From Ptychomitrium polyphyllum (taxonomy: Eukaryota), in NCBI GenBank assembly GCA_973851085.1, contig OZ316775.1, forward strand, positions 4,960,001-5,024,000: 64,000 nucleotides of DNA. The letters run 5' to 3'. The translations under genes and the position numbers were made by a program. Below, in pieces: positions 41,661-53,036 of this stretch. Position 1 is the stretch's first letter; each line of letters begins with the position of its first letter. The notes beneath the pieces were generated by a model. It saw nothing but the letters and a program-made list of their open reading frames with translations, had not been told where the DNA came from and made no database searches.

Positions 41661-44600
41661 ATGGCGGCCAACGCCCCCATCGCCATGAAGGAGGCGTTAA
41701 CGGTACGTCCGGGTGCTTTCGGGGTCGTGTGGGGGTTGGGAGATTCGCTCCTTGTGCCTGTGTGATGGGATGGTTTTCTTGGTGCAGAGTGTGTTTTGGG
41801 ATGTCTGGGGTCTTTTGTTCGGAGGTTTTGGAGTTTGTGTGGTGGAGGGTGGGATCTGGGGATCGGTTGGTGGGTCGAGAATTTGGGGTTTGGAGTTTGG
41901 AGGTGAGGTGGTGTGGGAGGAGGTGTTGAGATGGAGTGCTATGTGGAATCTGTGAGCCGGGTGGGGGGGGTGGGGTTCATGGTTGAGTCGTGGGCAATTT
42001 GGGGTGGTGGCGGTGGAGTGGGGTCTCGCTGAGCTCGTTCTGGTGTGACAATGTAGCTGACGAGCTTGGGCATAAACCAACAATTCGTGACGTTCACCCA
42101 TGTGACGATGGAATCCGACAAGTTCATTTGCGTGCGCGAGACTTCACCTCAGAACAGCGTTGTCATCATCGACATGTCAATGCCCAACCAGCCTCTACGG
42201 CGGCCTATTACAGCTGACTCCGCGCTCATGAATCCCACCAGCAGGGTTCTTGCCCTAAAAGGTGCGTTAACCTCATGCATGAGCTCTGGATCCAAGAGTT
42301 TGCTGCTTTGCGCCGAGCGGGGGACTCACCGTGCCGCTTTGTAATTGGGGCACACGTTGCGCTCCACTGAATCGGAGGCTGATCGCTTTACTGTGTACTC
42401 TCTTAAGAAGTGGTTGAGGGTTCTCAAGATTTCGTTTCAGTGATTATTCTCCTAGTAATTCATCTTCTTGGCTCTTGATAAATCAAATAGTACCGCTAGT
42501 GAAAAGTCAATTGGGGTTCCGAAGCTCTCATCACGTTCACTCAAGAGGACAGATTATCTTTTGCGTAAGGGAAATAGCATCTAACCTGAACGGCGTTAGT
42601 CAATCTACAAGGTGATTGAATAGTTGGAAGAGTTGGATGCTGCCATTTCTTGAGAAACGGCCTGTATTTGCTCGTGGTCGTGCTCCCTGTCTTTTTGTCA
42701 GAGAATTGCAGGGGTCATGTCATGCGATCAGGAACCTTTGCGTGAAAGTCACATTAGAGAAACGATTTAAAGCTGAATTAATAAGCTCGGAGTTTAAGGT
42801 TGTGATCTTATTTTCCGCCGTTTCGAAGACCAGGCCGCACTAACTGTACTCGATTTTTGCTTGAACCTGTGGCTTGTCTTCGCTGGTTATAAATATCGTT
42901 CTCGCCGTCGTATTGGTTGCATTTTGCTTTTATTAATTGTACAGTGTGCCGAGGGCTGATGTTTTATGTTGGTGTTCTTTTCATTGTTTAGCTCAAATGC
43001 CTGGGACTACACAAGATCATTTGCAAATTTTTAACATTGAGTTAAAGGCGAAAATAAAGTCTTATCAGATGCCAGAACAGGTATGAAAGATATGGGCACC
43101 CGTCAATTTGTTTAACAGTTTGTGCATGATAACAGTCTTGTAATACAGTTATTTTTCGGGGTCAGATTTTGCACTCCTTTTGTGGTACTTTTTAAATCCT
43201 ACTTCCTGACTACTTCGTACAGGTGGTATTTTGGAAGTGGATCACTCCAAAGTTACTCGGGCTCGTCACACAATCATCAGTATATCACTGGTCCATAGAA
43301 GGTATAAACATTATCATTCATAAGCTCCGACTCTCCTTTTATTGAGGTTGTTAGTGTTGTGTTTTTTGATCTAGAGATTTTACAACCTATGGTGTTCTAG
43401 TACAAGCTTTAAATCGGTTCTCTAAAACTTCGTTGTTATTGGTATAGGTGAAAGTGAACCATTGAAGATGTTTGAGAGAACTGCAAATTTGACTGGCAAC
43501 CAGATCATTAATTACCGGTGTGATCCTTCTGAAAAGTGGCTCGTATTGATTGGGATTGCGCCTGGGGCTCCTGAGGTACGTTAGACCTAAGAACATGATT
43601 TTGATCAACGATTCGTTTTCTGTAGCTCCCTTACCATACAATATCCATCTGGCAGTTAGCACAACTTTGTGTTTCATGTTTAAGAGACTTGTATTTGGTA
43701 ACGTGCACCTAGTCACTAAAAACTTTCATGACTGGGGCATAGTAAGTCAAATACCGTAATAGTTGAAACGGACATATGATATTGAAGCGACACACAGGTG
43801 CTTCAGATCAGACACCAAGGACTCGACAGTCTATACAATCTGTGACCTCATGCTACTTGAATATTCATCCGAAACAATAACTTTGAATGTGGAAAGGTTT
43901 TTGCCCTTGCATTTGTGCCGTCCGCCCCGCTTATATCATTGACATTGCATGGAATACAGTTTGAAAAGCAATCAACAGTTCTTTCTCACTATGTGATGTG
44001 ATTTGCAGCGCCCACAGCTTGTGAAAGGAAACATGCAGCTGTTTTCCGTGGATCAGCAGAGAAGTCAAGCGTTAGAAGCGCACGCAGCATCATTTGCATC
44101 TTTCAAGGTAAAATGGTCATTTCTTGGACGTAGATCTCTTACGTTGATGTGGTTTGAAGAAGCGCGTGAAATGGCAATTATATCTTTTACATGCTGCTGG
44201 ATCTGCAGTTGTGACTTTTTGAGGTGCTTCTTGAGTGATCCAGGTTTCAGGCCATGAAAAATCCTCTCTTCTTATTGCATTCGCAACAAAGTCTTTGGTT
44301 GGCGGTCAGCTGGTTTCAAAAATGCATGTTATTGAGCTGGGGGCTCAGCCAGGTCTGTGTCTACTTTTCTTGACTCAAATGAGAGTGACTTAACCATTTG
44401 ATGAAATCAGGTGCCAGGAAACGATTCATCAAGTCTCTTGATTGCATTCTCAACAAAAACCATTAGTGCTGGACAGCTTACATCCAAGCTGCATATCATT
44501 GAGCTTGGTGCCCAACCAGGTTGGTCAGACCTGGAATGATCCTACTTATCCACAATTCAATGTTTAGTTTCCTGTACATCCTCGCTTCCATGTTTTCGGA

Positions 44601-47600
44601 GCTTCAGAGAAGATTCGCATGAGATCCACTGAAGCAAAGTGGAGTTCGACTACTACGACCTGTCTTCCTGCTGTCTCTTGACGCAAAGAGGCTGGTGCTA
44701 TTTTCATAGCAATTTGATGTTTCTACGATACGAGGTTTACTATTCCTGACACATTGTTTACACTTGGTTTTCAGGGAGACCTGGGTTTGCAAAGAAGGCG
44801 GCAGATTTGTTCTTTCCTCCGGACTTTGCAGATGATTTTCCAGTTGCAATGCAGGTGGGTCCTCTCATGTAGCGCCAATTGAATGGATATTACTTTAGGG
44901 AATGTATTGTGCTAGATATGTACACGTGTACTTTGCCGCTTCTCCTTTGTTTTATCTTTCTCTGCATCACAATCCTTGAAGCATTTAGAAGTTCCAATTT
45001 ATCTGAACTTGAATATGTTTTAGCTTGGTACTCAGAATGGTTCAGCTTAGCATGTTTGCCTCCATTCCCGGACTGATCCGTTGAATTCCTTGGGTTTTGC
45101 AGATTTCATCCAAATATAATCTTATTTACGTCATTACAAAGCTGGGTCTTCTTTTTGTCTACGATCTGGAAACTGCTACAGCTGTGTATAGGAATCGTAT
45201 CAGCCCAGATCCAATTTTTTTGACAGCTGATGCACCAACAGTTGGTGGGTTTTATGCGGTCAATCGTCGCGGACAAGTTTTACTGGCGGCTGTTAATGAG
45301 GCAACAATTGTCCCATTCGTTAGTAACCAGGTGAACTCTTTGTTCACAGATTATTGATTGATGGCACTTATGTTAAAGTACACCCAGTGGATTGACCTTC
45401 TATTTCAGGTTTGGTGGTGGTCATTTTTTTCCTCTAGAACGTGGCATCCTCTGACCTGATCATATCCTACTGTAATCGGCAGCTAAATAATTTGGAGCTT
45501 GCAGTGAATCTTGCAAGGCGAGGAAATTTGCCTGGAGCAGAAGGCTTGGTATGTTATTTCTTGCAACCTGTTGGAGTTGATGTTGGAGTTGGCATACATA
45601 TGGAGCAGCTTGTTTAGGCCTGTTTGTGTCCGGTGGACTTCTATATGTTGCTAGATCTACTTTCCCTGATATTACGTGTGACATCGGTTCGTCGTCTGTG
45701 CGGGCTAGTAACATCTATTTCTGATCTCTTTAGCAGTCAATTCATGTGATATCTTATATTGACGAAAACGAGGGTTTATTGTTGAATACAGGTTGTGCAA
45801 CGTTTCCAAGAGTTGTTCTCGCAGATGAAATACAAGGAAGCAGCTGACCTTGCAGCTGAATCACCTCAAGGGATTCTTCGAACTCCAGATACCGTGGCTA
45901 AATTTCAGGTTTGTCACCCATTTTCATTGTATTTTTGTTTAATTTCCACAAATTCTATGATTTTATTGCTGTGGTTTCTTGTATTTCTTTCAAGTGACTA
46001 GTACAGCAAATGGATTTCAACCTAGTGTTAATACCTCGGTCTTGTTCCTGATTTAACTTCTGGAAAATAAAATTTTCTATTTTCCTACTGCAGAGCGTTC
46101 CAGTGCAGCCGGGACAGACTTCACCGCTTCTACAGTACTTTGGGACATTGCTGACTAAGGGAAAACTAAATATGTTTGAGTCTTTAGAGCTATCTCGTTT
46201 GGTTGTAAATCAAAACAAGAAGAATTTGCTCGAAAACTGGTTGGCGGAGGACAAGCTCGAGTGTAGTGAAGATCTAGGAGATCTTGTAAAGGTGTCTTAT
46301 TATGACTGTTGACTGGTCTATGATCTACTATCAGTTAAAAATAGTTAACTATGAAAGGGTATTATGTTCTGAGTCAAGTTTATTGCCTCTTATATCGACC
46401 TGCACGACTATTGTTTTGGAAAGACTGCAGGATTAAGATGTAACTGGTTTGGTTGCAAGTTAGTTTCAGCCAGTATGAACATGGAATAATAAGGCTATCT
46501 TCTGTTTTATTCTGTTGGTTGTCATCGTCTGGGCCATCTGGCTTGGCTAATATACTGTAAGCATGCTTTATGTCTCTGCAGACTGTGGACAATGATATGG
46601 CTTTGAAAATCTACATTAAGGCCAGAGCTACTCCCAAAGTGGTTGCCGCTTTTGCTGAGCGGCGTGAGTTTGACAAGATACTCATATACTCCAAGCAGGT
46701 TATTTCAACACAAGATTTTTGAACTCTTAACATCCTTAACCGACTGTTTCCTGGAATGCTTGAGTTCAACAGTTCTTCTCTACTTTTTTGTATCGGGGCC
46801 AACTTGTCGGTGTACTATATACACATGCAGACATAGATGCCTGGAAGATTATTTACACAGTGTCGCCTACACTGCAGGTCGGTTATACTCCAGATTATCT
46901 GTTCCTGCTGCAGACAATCTTGCGATCAGATCCTCAGGTATATTTGAGTTTCCTGCATTATCTTTATAAACAGTATATGAAGGGTTACATTCCTTGTATG
47001 ATGTAATCTATATGTCTCTCTTAGTTCTAATGTTGTCTATTTTATTTGTGGATGCAGGGTGCTGTGAACTTTGCTCTTATGATGTCTCAGCTGGAAGGAG
47101 GGTGCCCAGTAGACTACAATGTCATTACTGACTTGTTCCTTCAGGTATGAATTAACGCTGGTCCATGTTCGGTATTGAATACACCTTTTTTGGAGTACTA
47201 AAATCTTCATTGCCTTCTGGTTATTCTATCTTCTGATATCTTTGTGGTTGTTATGCAGCGCAACATGATCAGGGAGGCAACTGCGTTTCTTTTGGATGTT
47301 CTTAAGCCTAATCTGCCAGAGCATGCTTTGCTTCAAACCAAGGTCTGGTTTAGCCTTCTGCATGCCTTGCTTTCGGATAAATATGTACTCATGGCATTGA
47401 ATCTCAACATCCTCTTTGGCTCCCTTGGTTTGTTTTGACAAGTCCCACTTATTTGTTTGTTTATTTATTCCATCTGTCTTCAACGCTCTTACTTCTGGTT
47501 TACTGGAGTTTGTGCCCTTTCTCATATAGTTTTCCTTTAGAGCTTTTACCGTTGTTGGGTTTGTCAATTTTCACTCAGGATAGGTATTTCTATAGATTTG

Positions 47601-50600
47601 TATTTATTTAATTCGCTTCTTGACATGTTCTGGTTTCCTTTTCAGGTGCTGGAGATCAACCTGGTCACCTTTCCTAACGTGGCTGACGCGATTCTGGCAA
47701 ACGGCATGTTCAGCCATTATGATCGTCCTCGCATTGCTCAGCTTTGTGAGAAAGCTGGTCTTTACATGCGTGCTCTTCAGCACTACACAGAGTTGAATGA
47801 TATCAAGCGTGTTGTGATCAACACTCATGCTATTGAGCCCCAGGTATTTCACTTAGCTTATTTCTACGGCTTCCTTTTGTAGCTCTTTGTTGCGTTCCTT
47901 TCTGTGGTTTGTTGCAAGTCTGAGTTGAAGTTCTTTATGCAGCCTCAAAGTGCTGAACTAAGACGCGGCTTGTGCTCGTCTTTATGTTTCTGCAGGCCCT
48001 AGTAGAATTTTTTGGAACCTTGTCAAAGGAGTGGGCTTTAGATTGCATGAAGGAGTTGCTCCAAGTCAACATGCGAGGCAATCTACAAATCATTGTGCAG
48101 GTGCGTGTCGTGAATTAGCAGTTCGTTTGTAGTCTTAAAATTCATTGATTTTTATTGTTGTGGAGGTCCTTTCTAGCTTTCTTTAATAGTCAAGTAATAT
48201 TATACTCATTTAAGAATGCTGGGGTCAGTCTACTTCAATATTGCAAACTTTACAGTTAGCCCACAATTGCACCTGTATACAGGTTGCAAAGGAGTACGGG
48301 GAACAGCTGGGCATCGATGCATGTGTTAAGTTATTTGAGACCTTCAAGTCATATGAAGGACTTTACTTCTTCCTTGGTGCATACCTAAGTACAAAGTGAG
48401 TTCCTTCTGTTGGTTTTGATCTTGAGAATTGTGGAAGGCAAGACAATGATTGAGATGGGTGATCTTGGGATGCCTCAATGTATTGGATGCCTGAAATTTC
48501 GGGATACCAGTTACTTATGTATGCCTTCGTTTCGTACAAGTAAAATCCTTCTGAATTGTCGATTGTTGTATTCAGTGAGGATCCTGAGATCCACTATAAG
48601 TACATTGAAGCCGCAGCCAAGACTGGTCAAATCAAAGAAGTGGAGCGTGTCACAAGAGAGTCAAACTTCTATCCTCCTGAGAGGACCAAAAATTTCTTGA
48701 TGGAAGCAAAGTTGCCAGATGCAAGGCCTCTGATTAATGTTTGTGATCGACATGGCTATGTGCCTGATCTTACTCATTATCTCTATGCCAACAACATGCT
48801 TCGGTATATTGAGGGATATGTGCAAAAGGTAATTTGTAATTCATTGATCAGAGGTTCTCTACGATTGCTACAGTATCCATGAAGTGCATACTGCCCACTG
48901 GATTCAAATTTACTCAATCTTGGGCTCCTTGATATCTTTCTGACATCTGCGTATCATGCAGGTCAATCCTCAAAACGCACCTTTGGTGGTTGGGCAGCTG
49001 CTGGATGATGATTGCCCTGAGGATTTTATCAAGGGCCTAATCTTGTCTGTCCGGTCATTGCTTCCAGTGGAGCCTCTGGTTGACGAGTGTGAGAAGAGGT
49101 AATTTGAATGTTTATCGTTGAGTTCTAATCAGCCATATAGCTGGTTCTACATTGCTTTTTCATTTACAAACTGCATTGTATTCTGTTCACCAGTGCTCCA
49201 CGGACACTATTATCATATTAGAAGAGTTTTGAATGTGGATTTTACAGAAGTTCAATATTGAGAATGCTGACATGTTGAGTTCATTACTAACGAGTTGTGA
49301 CTTTTGACAGAAATCGTCTCCGGCTGTTGACACAATTCTTAGAGCATCTCGTGAGTGAAGGAAGTCAAGATGTGCATGTGCACAACGCTCTTGGAAAGAT
49401 CATTATTGATACAAATAACAACCCTGAGCATTTCCTTACAACAAATCCTTACTATGACTCTAAAGTTGTTGGTAAGTATTGTGAGAAGCGTGACCCCACG
49501 CTTGCAGTTGTTGCCTATAGACGAGGCCAATGTGACGATGAGCTCGTCAACGTGACCAACAAGAACTCTCTGTTTAAGCTCCAGGCCAGGTGAGGCTCTT
49601 CCCTATTTCTATATCACTTCAAGAAATTCAGCGAATATTGTCAGACATGATTCGTCTTGAAGCTTGGGTTCCGCAGTCAAATTTTCTTTTTCTTATAAAA
49701 GATTCTTGCCTGGTCAGTCCTATTATTTCTACACTTGTCTCCACTTCCTTTTCTTTTATAGTTGGCTGGACTCTAAGTTCCTTTGGTACTTGGTATGACC
49801 AGGTATGTGGTCGAGCGAATGGAACCAGACCTGTGGTTGAAGGTTCTCGACCCAGAAAATCCTTGCAGAAGACAGCTGATTGATCAGGTCGTGTCTACTG
49901 CTCTGCCAGAGAGTAAAAACCCAGAGCAGGTGTCAGCCACTGTTAAGGCATTCATGACCGCAGATTTGCCTCATGAGTTGATTGAGCTTCTAGAGAAAAT
50001 TGTTCTGCAGAACTCTGCCTTCAGTGGCAATCCGAATCTTCAGAATCTGCTCATTCTTACCGCAATCAAGGCTGACACAACAAGGGTTATGGATTATATC
50101 CACCGATTGGATAATTTTGATGGTCCGGCAGTGGGAGAAATTGCTGTCGGTGCTGAACTTTATGAGGAAGCATTTGCAATCTTCAAGAAGTTCAATCTGA
50201 ATGTCCAAGCCGTTAATGTTCTCCTAGACAACATGCGCAGCATTGATCGTGCTGTGGAGTTTGCAGCTCGAGTGGAAGAAGATGAGGTCTGGAGCCAAGT
50301 GGGTAAGGCACAGTTGAGGGAAGGCCTGGTCAGCGATGCTATTGAGTCTTTCATCAAGGCAAATGATGCCTCTCAATACAACGAGGTTATTGACGTAGCA
50401 TCTGGTGTAAGGGCATACGAGGATCTAGTGAGATACTTGAACATGGTACGCAAGAAGGTGAAGGAGGCGAAGGTGGATTCTGAGTTGATCTTTGCGTATG
50501 CCAAGCTGAACCGCTTAGATGACATTGAGGAGTTTATTGTCACTCCCAACCTTGCAAACTTGCAAACTGTTGGAGATCGTCTATTTGATGAGGCTTTGTA

Positions 50601-53036
50601 TGAAGCTGCTAAAATAATTTTCACTCACATTTCCAACTGGGCCAGACTTGCCAGTACTCTTGTTAAGCTTCACCAGTTTCAAGCAGCTGTGGATGCAGCT
50701 AGGAAGGCCAACAGCGCACGGACATGGAAGGAAGTCTGTTTTGCTTGCGTGGATGCTGAGGAGTTCCGCCTGGCACAAATTTGTGGTCTCAATGTCATTG
50801 TCCAGGTATGCAATTAACTCCTTGAAGTTTAATTCGATACTGAATTGTTTTTAATGAGTAGGCTCTTTATGTTTAACAACTATAGTAATGTGCAAATCTC
50901 AATAGTACGAATTTGGCGTTTTAAACTTGAAATTTGTGCAAAGATGTGCAGTGGCTGGTCTTAGCTGGGAAAGCAACTCTAAATCCCTGAACATGATTGT
51001 GTATAATCTTTGTAGGTTGATGATTTGGAAGAGGTCAGTGAATACTACCAGAACAGGGGTCGCTTTGACGAGCTCATCTCACTCATGGAAAGTGGACTCG
51101 GTTTGGAGCGTGCTCACATGGGTATCTTTACAGAACTTGGTACTTTGTATGCCAAGTACCGTCCAGAGAAGCTTATGGAGCATCTCAAGCTTTTTGCCAC
51201 CCGTATCAACATTCCAAGACTTATCCGTGTGTGCGACGAGCAACAGCACTGGAAGGAACTTACGTACTTGTATATTCAGTATGATGAGTTCGACAATGCT
51301 GCTGCTACTATGATGAGCCATTCTCCAGAAGCTTGGGATCATATGCAGTTCAAGGATGTGGCCGTCAAGGTCGCCAATGTGGAACTGTACTACAAGGCTG
51401 CTCATTTCTATCTGCAAGAGCATCCAGAACTCATCAATGATTTCCTTAATGTTCTTTCTGCTCGTGTAGATCACACGAGAGTGGTGGATATCATGCGGAA
51501 GGTAAGTTAGTCGTATAGAGAGAATTGCCACTTAAGTGTTGCTCATTCTCCGTAAATGCTCTCTCATTGAATATTATTTTTATGGTTGTTGATTTAGCTG
51601 AATTCCTTATGACTCTTAATATACTTAATTGGAGATTGATATATAATTGTCATTTCTTATATGTGCTTCTACGTCACATCTGCAGGCTGGACAATTACCA
51701 CTGGTGAAGCCATATATGGTGGCTGTTCAGAGTGCTAACAATGCTGCAGTGAATGAGGCTCTAAACGGGCTTTACATTGAGGATGAGGATTATGATCGGC
51801 TCAGGGAGTCCATTGATATGTATGATAACTTTGACCAGATTTCAATGGCACAACGGGTAACAACTTCATCCTTTCTCCAAGCGTGCGTGATCATGTTACC
51901 ATGCATATTACAATGCTCACTAAATTGGAATCGTGGCGATAACTTTTCTGTCGTTGATTTTATCAGCTGTGCTCTTGATGTTTGATGGTTCCAAAATATA
52001 TGCTGAATATATGTATTTTATTCATTCTCGTCAGATTGAGAAGCACGAGCTTCTGGAAATGCGAAGGGTTGCAGCGTACATCTACAAGAGGGCTGGGAGA
52101 TGGAAACAGTCTGTGGCTCTTTCGAAGAAGGATAACTTGTACAAGGATGCCATGGAGACTTGCTCACAGTCAGGGGATCGTGATCTTGCTGAGGAGTTGC
52201 TCACTTTTTTTGTGGACAAGGTAACTCATCAACTTTACTTTGTATGTTTATTTGTCCATGGCTTTAGTTTGTTAATGTATACATTCGGCCTCGTCCTGAT
52301 CGTTGGCATTCGGTGTTTTTTCTAATACTGGTTTGTATATTTGGATCGTTGCTTTTGACGCAGGGCAAAAAAGAATGCTTTGCTGCATGCTTATATACCT
52401 GCTATGATCTCATTCGTGCCGACATCGCCGTTGAGCTGGCCTGGATGCATGGCATGATGGATTTTGTCGTACCCTACTTATTACAGGTCTGTACTTTTTG
52501 ACCTTCTTAAATGCCACTTGCTTATTTTGTCTACTTAAATTTCATTTGCTCATCAATAAATGCTACTCTGAAAATATTTATGAAATCCTTAAATTGCGGT
52601 TACTCATTAATATTATCTCTTGTAGTTCATGCGCGAGTACACAACAAAGGTTGATGAGCTTATCAAGGATAAACTGGAAGCAACTGAAGAAAAGAAGTCC
52701 AAGGAATCTGAGGAGAAGGATGTTGTCGCTCAACAGGTATAATTTCTATCTATCAGAATATCAATTCTGATGTTTGTTTATTTTGGTCAGCCATGAGATG
52801 CCTTTGCCATCAAACTGTCACCAAAAAATGGTTGGAGTAACACAGCCTGTATAATTTTTGTGAAAGCTTTAGCTGATGTTTTCATATCTCTGCAGAATAT
52901 GTATGCCCAGCTTTTGCCTTTGGCTCTACCTGCCCCACCTGTTGCCGGCATGGCTGCTATGCCTGGCATGGGTGCAGGTATGCCTTACGGGGGAATGCCA
53001 GGAGGATACGGCATGCCCTCCATGAGTTCGTTCTAA
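41661..53036 (+). CDS. CHC: Clathrin heavy chain (about 30 exons), with a duplicated exon 7
   Basis: [14 protein letters not shown] (41661-41702) | [29 protein letters not shown] (42057-42261) | 42992-43080 | 43223-43301 | 43448-43575 | 44009-44107 | exon 7a/7b | 44775-... The CHCR-repeat exons include [18 protein letters not shown] and the ~1-kb exon from 49803 ([11 protein letters not shown]...). The last exon reads [15 protein letters not shown]...[10 protein letters not shown], with TAA at 53034-53036. Confidence 0.97.
44244..44352 (+). other. CHC: Clathrin heavy chain alternative exon 7a (109 nt)
   Basis: CCAG|GTTTCA...[49 protein letters not shown](G); phase 0 in, phase 1 out. Confidence 0.8.
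44411..44519 (+). other. CHC: Clathrin heavy chain alternative exon 7b (109 nt)
   Basis: ATCAG|GTGCCA...[49 protein letters not shown](G); phase 0 in, phase 1 out. Confidence 0.9.

What the first reader, a model, noticed from the sequence alone, without database searches (positions are those of the whole stretch)
44353..44410. 58-nt spacer between the clathrin alternative exons suggests steric exclusion
Seen in sequence: the intron between 7a and 7b is only 58 nt, the shortest I noticed in this gene. Its best branch-point-like motif (CTTAAC, 44389-44394) lies ~40 nt from the 7a donor at 44353, and there is almost no pyrimidine tract before the AG. Established knowledge: a donor-to-branchpoint distance below ~50 nt sterically prevents two exons being joined, as in vertebrate alpha-tropomyosin exons 2/3. 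Inference: exclusivity here is hard-wired by geometry, with NMD of double-inclusion products as a backup.
Basis: partly seen in the sequence, partly recalled or inferred. Interest (0 to 1): 0.7.

Follow-up and report, generated by a model that had tools for sequence, protein, structure and literature searches.

The report
Too-short spacer between moss clathrin exons
A moss clathrin gene carries two alternative copies of one exon only 58 bases apart; a related species makes messages with either copy, related genes keep the gap at 39-58 bases, and the gap is likely too short to be cut out, a locking trick known in animals and rarely reported in plants.

Summary
Exons 7a (44244-44352) and 7b (44411-44519) are 109-nt duplicates in a moss clathrin heavy chain gene. 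The 58-nt spacer is half the next-shortest intron (114 nt). The pair is real and old: Physcomitrium RefSeq isoforms X1 and X3 differ only here. In 4 of 4 runs of one relative, contigs hold both 6-7a-8 and 6-7b-8; no 7a-7b joint appears in 6 of 6 presumed RNA runs. Steric exclusion is the best reading (0.7), but three corrections apply. CTTAAC is chance-level and not strictly kept; the argument does not need it, since any branch A at least 11 nt from the acceptor lies within 47 nt of the donor. The layout is the too-short-intron type (C. elegans egl-15, let-2), not tropomyosin's distant branch point. NMD would not catch a join to an AG 7 nt into 7b, which stays in frame. NMD-mutant data could not be read, so NMD as the main filter is not excluded. 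The scan has found similar short spacers in animal genes, none in clathrin or moss. New member of a known kind.

The parts
41661..53036 (+). Clathrin heavy chain gene, 29 coding exons per isoform, 1697 aa with either 7a or 7b
   Evidence: Exon model from tblastn of P0187 refined on GT-AG; 97.5% identical to Ceratodon purpureus P0185, 92.9% to Physcomitrium P0187
44009..44107 (+). Exon 6, the shared upstream exon
   Evidence: its end is the loose end on both the 7a and the 7b contigs of a relative
44108..44243 (+). Intron 6-7a, 136 nt
   Evidence: same length in a second copy of the gene in run X7 (table 5)
44244..44352 (+). Alternative exon 7a, 109 nt (3n+1)
   Evidence: matches Physcomitrium isoform X1 at 27 of 36 residues; spliced to exon 8 in 4 of 4 runs of organism B
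44353..44410 (+). 58-nt spacer intron, likely too short to be excised
   Evidence: 39-58 nt in 8 of 8 measured cases; no contig joins across it or covers it in 6 presumed RNA runs
44389..44394 (+). Candidate branch site for 7b (A44393, position 41); other candidates at A44373 (position 21) and A44401 (position 49); unmapped
   Evidence: pattern match only
44411..44519 (+). Alternative exon 7b, 109 nt (3n+1), the more conserved copy
   Evidence: 32 of 36 residues match Physcomitrium X3, 34 of 36 match Ceratodon P0185; spliced in 6 of 6 presumed RNA runs
44416..44417 (+). Internal AG 7 nt into 7b; a 7a join to 44418 (65-nt intron) would stay in frame, 1731 aa
   Evidence: weak site (3 of 27 acceptors score lower); used by one old Physcomitrium model P0189; not seen in contigs
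44464..44466 (+). Premature stop if 7a is joined to the normal 7b acceptor; 22 junctions downstream
44516..44534 (+). Predicted 7-bp hairpin over the 7b donor (lead only)
   Evidence: opening energy ranks 2-4 of 29 donors; fold z 0.88, not better than shuffles
44520..44774 (+). Intron 7b-8, 255 nt; the only intron seen retained in a relative
   Evidence: Contig at depth 5.4, 8.4 and 6.5 in 3 of 4 runs of organism B; Physcomitrium X2 protein starts with residues that replace exon 7 just before exon 8
44775..44854 (+). Exon 8, the shared downstream exon

Best explanation
Exons 7a and 7b are tandem duplicates that a related species splices one at a time, and the 58-nt spacer likely blocks the 7a-7b join because it leaves too little room between the 7a donor and any usable branch point. 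Shown: the two exons, their lengths, the spacer, both single-exon forms in a relative, short spacers in every case measured. Inferred: the exon 6 donor picks either the 7a or the 7b acceptor; the 7b branch site works from the distant exon 6 donor (303-nt intron) but not from the 7a donor 41 nt away, so 7a can only go on to exon 8. NMD would remove any out-of-frame leak and the 6-8 skip. Selection likely keeps the spacer short, not its exact sequence.
For: Spacer 58 nt against 114-730 nt for the gene's 28 other modelled introns, and 80 nt or more for the introns flanking exon 7 in 54 of 54 intron-bearing single-exon loci. Spacers of 57, 53, 39, 55, 55 and 56 nt in six distinct read-through ORFs and about 51 nt in a second gene copy. 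With a branch A at least 11 nt from the end (an assumed limit), the donor-branch distance is 28-47 nt. In human extract 46 nt abolished splicing and about 50 nt is the quoted minimum (PMC6692369); about 60 nt is the minimum intron used for Arabidopsis (PMC3371709). The 7a donor is strong (23 of 27 score lower), so a weak donor does not explain the missing join. In organism B the 7a contig runs unbroken from exon 6 to exon 8 in 4 of 4 runs, while a branch at the 7b donor survived assembly at depth 5-8 in 3 of 4. The in-frame 44352-44418 join, which NMD would miss, is also absent.
Against: All RNA evidence is assembled contigs from relatives, guessed to be RNA, presumably NMD-competent; contigs drop rare forms. 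In C. elegans 14 of 19 non-3n clusters leaned on NMD, and all five too-short clusters had 3n exons (PMC4165533); these exons are 3n+1. The 50-nt limit comes from mammalian extracts; no moss value was found. The branch site is unmapped, and the -18 motif is not kept in P0121 or P0296. Read-through ORFs favour short spacers, come from unnamed contigs, and 7a looks degraded in P0122. Whether the internal AG exists in organism B is unknown.
Confidence: 0.7

Rival explanations
1. The spacer is spliced at some rate, and NMD is the main filter: 7a+7b shifts the frame and the message is destroyed.
For: Double inclusion stops at 44464 with 22 junctions downstream; the 6-8 skip also stops early. Moss has SMG1-dependent NMD (PMC6009662). 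14 of 19 non-3n clusters in C. elegans rely on NMD. 58 nt is only just under the 60-nt plant figure.
Against: NMD alone gives no reason for 8 of 8 spacers to stay under 60 nt while neighbouring introns vary (6-7a is 136 nt here and 201 nt in P0232; 7b-8 is 255 to about 321 nt). A 39-nt spacer (P0196, one 936-nt contig) is far below the plant figure. The in-frame +7 join escapes NMD and is not seen.
Confidence: 0.17
2. RNA pairing or bound repressors enforce the choice (docker-selector type, or a hairpin that slows the 7b donor), and the short spacer is incidental.
For: Bases next to both donors are conserved: the second gene copy matches 14 nt into the spacer and 21 nt into intron 7b-8; organism B is identical over 44491-44542. 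A 7-bp hairpin is predicted over the 7b donor, and only that intron is seen retained.
Against: None of 10 region pairs pairs better than shuffles (7-19 of 20 shuffles as good); the whole region folds at z 0.04. The donors of exons 8 and 9 are predicted to be about as closed as the 7b donor. The hairpin's 3' arm codons are kept in 3 of 4 distinct read-throughs, not in P0299. A hairpin could tune the 7a/7b ratio without being the lock.
Confidence: 0.09
3. 7a is a dead or dying duplicate, so there is no exclusivity to enforce in this species.
For: No RNA of this species was available. Organism A showed only 6-7b-8. 7a is degraded in P0122.
Against: Here 7a is open, in phase, with strong sites. 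Physcomitrium X1 carries it. In organism B its contigs have about half the depth of the 7b contigs (22-34 against 46-69).
Confidence: 0.04

Closest known systems
C. elegans mutually exclusive clusters with too-short intervening introns: egl-15 5B/5A (14 nt), let-2 9/10 (30 nt), bet-2, gly-5, gly-6 (PMC4165533, passages)
   Same: Tandem alternative exons separated by an intron below the organism's minimum length, never seen excised.
   Different: Those exons are all 3n and their spacers are under 40 nt in an animal with a 40-nt minimum. Here the exons are 3n+1, spacers are 39-58 nt, close to the plant figure of about 60 nt, and the host is a moss.
Rat alpha-tropomyosin exons 2/3 (PMC1431707 and PMC6692369, passages; the 1989 paper was not seen)
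   Same: Same proposed physics: donor-to-branch distance under about 50 nt.
   Different: Tropomyosin uses a mapped distant branch point 175 nt before exon 3. Here the branch point must lie within 58 nt of the acceptor, there is no long pyrimidine tract, and it is unmapped.
Human steric-interference MXE class, 57 of 629 clusters (PMC5740500, passages)
   Same: Meets the same computational criterion (predicted branch under 50 nt from the donor); like 60% of human clusters it also has non-3n exons.
   Different: Plant gene; no raw junction counts available here.
Physcomitrium patens RefSeq clathrin heavy chain 2 isoforms X1 (XP_024386288.1) and X3 (XP_024386291.1)
   Same: The orthologous exon pair: both 1710 aa, differing at 15 positions, all within residues 217-252.
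   Different: An automatic annotation only; no paper describing the pair or its mechanism came up in searches or 71.

Membership tests
Tandem-duplicated mutually exclusive exons | Homologous neighbouring exons of similar length, same phase, same splice-site type | tested here: met
   109 and 109 nt, 24 of 36 residues identical, both give 1697 aa
Tandem-duplicated mutually exclusive exons | Each exon is spliced on its own to the shared flanks | tested here: met
   Both forms in 4 of 4 runs of organism B and as Physcomitrium X1/X3; not shown for this species
Tandem-duplicated mutually exclusive exons | Double inclusion and double skipping absent from mature RNA | tested here: inconclusive
   No such joint in 6 of 6 runs, but contigs drop rare forms
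Steric (too-short intron) exclusion | Intervening intron or donor-branch distance below the splicing minimum | tested here: met
   39-58 nt in 8 of 8; at most 47 nt to a branch A 11 nt from the end. Thresholds are from mammals and Arabidopsis
Steric (too-short intron) exclusion | Mapped branch point | not testable with these tools
   Three candidates, chance-level motif; needs lariat sequencing
Steric (too-short intron) exclusion | No double inclusion when NMD is off; joining appears when the spacer is lengthened | not testable with these tools
   smg1 supplement unreadable; no raw reads offered
Tropomyosin-type distant branch point | Branch point 100-400 nt before the acceptor, followed by a long AG-free pyrimidine-rich stretch | tested here: not met
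   The intron is 58 nt, longest pyrimidine run at -20..-4 is 3; definition
U2/U12 incompatibility | One flanking donor of U12 type | tested here: not met
   The exon 6, 7a and 7b donors are ordinary GT donors scoring like the others; the U12 donor consensus is recalled
Docker-selector RNA pairing | Competing, conserved long-range pairings | tested here: inconclusive
   No pairing above shuffles in this sequence; no DNA alignment of moss orthologues to test conservation
NMD-enforced exclusion | Double inclusion shifts the frame and makes an early stop with downstream junctions | tested here: met
   Stop at 44464, 22 junctions downstream; exception: the +7 acceptor is in frame

The most novel reading that the evidence does not exclude
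A plant case of mutually exclusive exons locked by a sub-minimal intron, older than the Physcomitrium split and kept in two clathrin gene copies, in which a hairpin-slowed, detained intron after 7b sets the 7a/7b ratio and swaps the propeller blade that walls the arrestin-box adaptor groove, giving mosses two regulated clathrin coats from one gene.
Probability: 0.25. Interest if true: 0.7.

Novelty: new member of a known kind. Interest (0 to 1): 0.48.

Why it matters
Reports of mutually exclusive splicing in plants were called rare in 2014 (PMC3923563), and a 2026 review of plant clathrin endocytosis has no passage on such isoforms in moss (find on four terms). This pair sits in an essential gene of a model moss with gene targeting and NMD knockouts. 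It offers a direct in-vivo test of the minimum donor-branch distance in plants and of geometry against NMD. The exon encodes the stretch that in mammalian clathrin holds F216, F218, H229, I231 and V233 of the arrestin-box groove. Those five positions are identical in 7a and 7b, so any change in adaptor binding would come from the flanking loops and is untested.

Tried and rejected
No whole genome is held, so the moss's genome-wide minimum intron could not be counted. No RNA holder was listed for this species. The metagenome scan gave 80 of 111 loci, none with a second exon-7 copy, so no DNA alignment of orthologous spacers could be made; spacer lengths come from read-through ORFs and one laid contig. 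In one search the exon 5 and exon 9 queries were in the wrong frame and were not used for counts. The identity figures were offset by one residue and were redone. Longer angiosperm 'X1' proteins were checked as possible double-exon forms: none of 120 proteins has two copies, and 8 of the 9 checked have intron-like inserts elsewhere. No other duplicated exon in this gene's introns. Long-range pairing and whole-region folding: no signal. P0189 was rejected as evidence of a double-inclusion transcript: it shares two other inserts with the old model P0006 that RefSeq X1 lacks, which suggests prediction. The supplement of PMC6009662 could not be read and may hold the decisive events; PMC1370234 is not held. 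Searches gave nothing on moss intron minima.

Full report
The locus. The finding lies in a clathrin heavy chain gene at 41661-53036 on the + strand. A model built by tblastn of a Physcomitrium protein and refined on GT-AG ends has 29 coding exons and gives 1697 aa. It is 97.5% identical to Ceratodon purpureus P0185, 92.9% to Physcomitrium P0187, 90.6% to Sphagnum and 89% to Marchantia, so the host is a moss. No whole genome is held.

The observation. Exon 7a is 44244-44352, the spacer 44353-44410 (58 nt, GT..AG), exon 7b 44411-44519. The exons are both 109 nt and share 71 bases and 24 of 36 residues. The 28 introns of the 7b model are 114-730 nt. It is one of three YTRAY-type hits (positions 21, 41, 49), and 54% of shuffled spacers have one. 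The acceptor has 8 pyrimidines in 17 positions, tied for lowest of 28, yet its overall score is mid-range. The 7a donor and 7a acceptor are strong, the 7b donor is below median (matrices built from 27 sites, so rough).

Is the pair really mutually exclusive? Physcomitrium RefSeq lists X1 and X3, both 1710 aa, differing only within residues 217-252. Window 7a matches X1 at 27 of 36 residues and X3 at 22; window 7b matches X3 at 32 and X1 at 22. So the duplication predates the split of these lineages. Six presumed RNA runs of three relatives, from two studies, were laid as contigs at 80% likeness. Organism B has both forms in 4 of 4 runs: 7a-8 at depth 30.8, 33.9, 31.7 and 21.8, and 7b-8 at 45.6, 68.8, 64.6 and 49.4, both preceded by the same exon 6 end. 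Organism A shows 6-7b-8 only. Organism C shows 6-7b-8 plus cover on 7a with a loose end like exon 8, possibly from another gene copy. No 7a-7b joint, no 6-8 joint and no cover of the spacer is listed in 6 of 6 runs. The 163-nt 7a contig is unbroken in all four B runs, whereas the 7b contig is split at its donor in three runs by a retained-intron contig of depth 5.4-8.4. I infer that a 7a-7b form at that level would also have shown. Contigs cannot show absence, and these samples presumably have NMD.

Is the spacer kept short? Run X7, possibly the source of this DNA, holds a second gene copy at the same depth with both exons; 65 letters stand where the window has 72, giving about 51 nt if exon 7b has no indel. 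Gene callers on unnamed genomic contigs produced ORFs that read through the 7a donor. Of 182 such read-through ORFs examined, 7 reach a second copy (scores 44-158; next best 24), six of them distinct: 56, 53, 57, 55, 39 and 55 nt. With the window, 8 of 8 are 39-58 nt. Read-through favours short spacers. Against that bias, nine further 7a-type ORFs stop within 2-16 codons and none runs past the expected end, while 94 of the other 175 run more than 21 codons without a second copy; two ambiguous ORFs (P0227, P0307) were left out of the nine. Related species share stops, so these are not independent. Spacer length mod 3 takes all three values, so it is not read as coding. At about -18 a branch-like motif is compatible with P0196, partly with P0197, and not with P0121 or P0296 (my back-translation). 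Outside this group the exon is single: 0 of 80 metagenome loci have a second copy; 47 show both flanking introns, 7 one side, 26 none, and the shortest flanking intron is 80 nt. Their organisms are unnamed; most resemble the flowering-plant and Sphagnum proteins.

Mechanism. In human extract a 46-nt donor-branch distance abolished splicing, about 50 nt is the quoted minimum, and about 52 nt follows from the B-complex structure (PMC6692369, passages). For Arabidopsis a 60-nt minimum intron is described as close to the experimental value (PMC3371709, passages). With a branch A at least 11 nt from the end, an assumed limit, the eight spacers leave 28-47 nt. The argument therefore rests on length, whichever A is used. 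Joining 7a to 7b gives a stop at 44464 with 22 junctions downstream, and skipping both also stops early, so NMD can act as backup. There is one gap: an AG at 44416-44417 allows an in-frame 1731-aa double-inclusion form through a 65-nt intron. One old Physcomitrium model uses exactly this join, probably as a prediction. The site is weak and unseen in contigs. NMD as the main filter remains possible: 14 of 19 non-3n clusters in C. elegans depend on it (PMC4165533, passages), and the moss smg1 supplement could not be read (main-text passages have no mention of clathrin). No docker-selector pairing was found.

A lead beyond the finding. If 7b-8 were spliced first, 7a would be stranded before an unusable spacer; a slow 7b donor would avoid that (inference). 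The 7b-8 intron is the only one seen retained in organism B, Physcomitrium X2 looks like a product of the same retention, about 21 intron bases after the 7b donor are conserved, and a 7-bp hairpin is predicted over that donor. But the fold is no better than shuffles, two constitutive donors look about as closed, and 1 of 4 read-throughs lacks the arm. It is a lead only.

Protein. Exon 7 aligns to mammalian residues of about 206-237 (through Sphagnum-like P0128), which include F216, F218, H229, I231 and V233 of the arrestin-box groove between blades 4 and 5 (PMC5182127, passages). The matching five residues are the same in 7a and 7b; the differences are mostly in the loops. Function of the swap is untested.

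Comparison with what is known. It works like steric exclusion, and by layout belongs with the too-short-intron clusters of C. elegans rather than with tropomyosin's distant branch point at -175 (PMC1431707, passages). 57 of 629 human clusters meet the under-50-nt criterion (PMC5740500, passages). Searches (listings only) found no paper on this pair; most subscription papers are not searched, and supplements of moss splicing studies may list it.

Verdict. Real, conserved, already present in an automatic annotation, apparently undescribed. Steric exclusion 0.7, NMD as main filter 0.17. New member of a known kind; interest 0.48.

Noticed in passing
window 44520-44774; runs X2, X3, X4: The intron after 7b is retained at low depth in a relative and is still alignable (38 differences and 4 gaps over 218 nt; identical over 44491-44542). 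Physcomitrium X2 fits the same retention. Possibly a regulated detained intron.
   Followed up: partly
run X7, records 15 and 16: The likely source sample holds a second clathrin gene copy with both 7a and 7b and a third copy whose listed match covers exon 8 only; the exon duplication predates at least one gene duplication.
   Followed up: partly
L011 2284-2897, L012, L015, L016, L018, L051-L053, L064, L065: Sphagnum-like genomic contigs (6-101 kb) have no introns around exons 6-8 and a single exon 7: intron loss in that lineage, which would have erased such a pair if it was ancestral.
   Followed up: no
L001 1782-2517 against L002 242-977: L001 and L002 share near-identical exon 7 and flanking introns but differ in exon 6, and L001 has no exon 8 in the following 865 nt: a partial duplicate, recombinant or misassembly.
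   Followed up: no
P0122 / P0194: In this unnamed relative 7a has changes at otherwise invariant residues, so that copy may be decaying while the 53-nt spacer persists.
   Followed up: no
window 44244 and 44411, acceptors: Both acceptors share a purine-rich stretch just before the AG, likely a remnant of the duplication; read-throughs suggest it is conserved.
   Followed up: no
P0032, P0042, P0046, P0060, P0071, P0088, P0097, P0099, P0102: Several flowering-plant clathrin 'isoform X1' proteins carry 24-35 residue intron-like inserts at residues 517-698; probably retained-intron models.
   Followed up: partly
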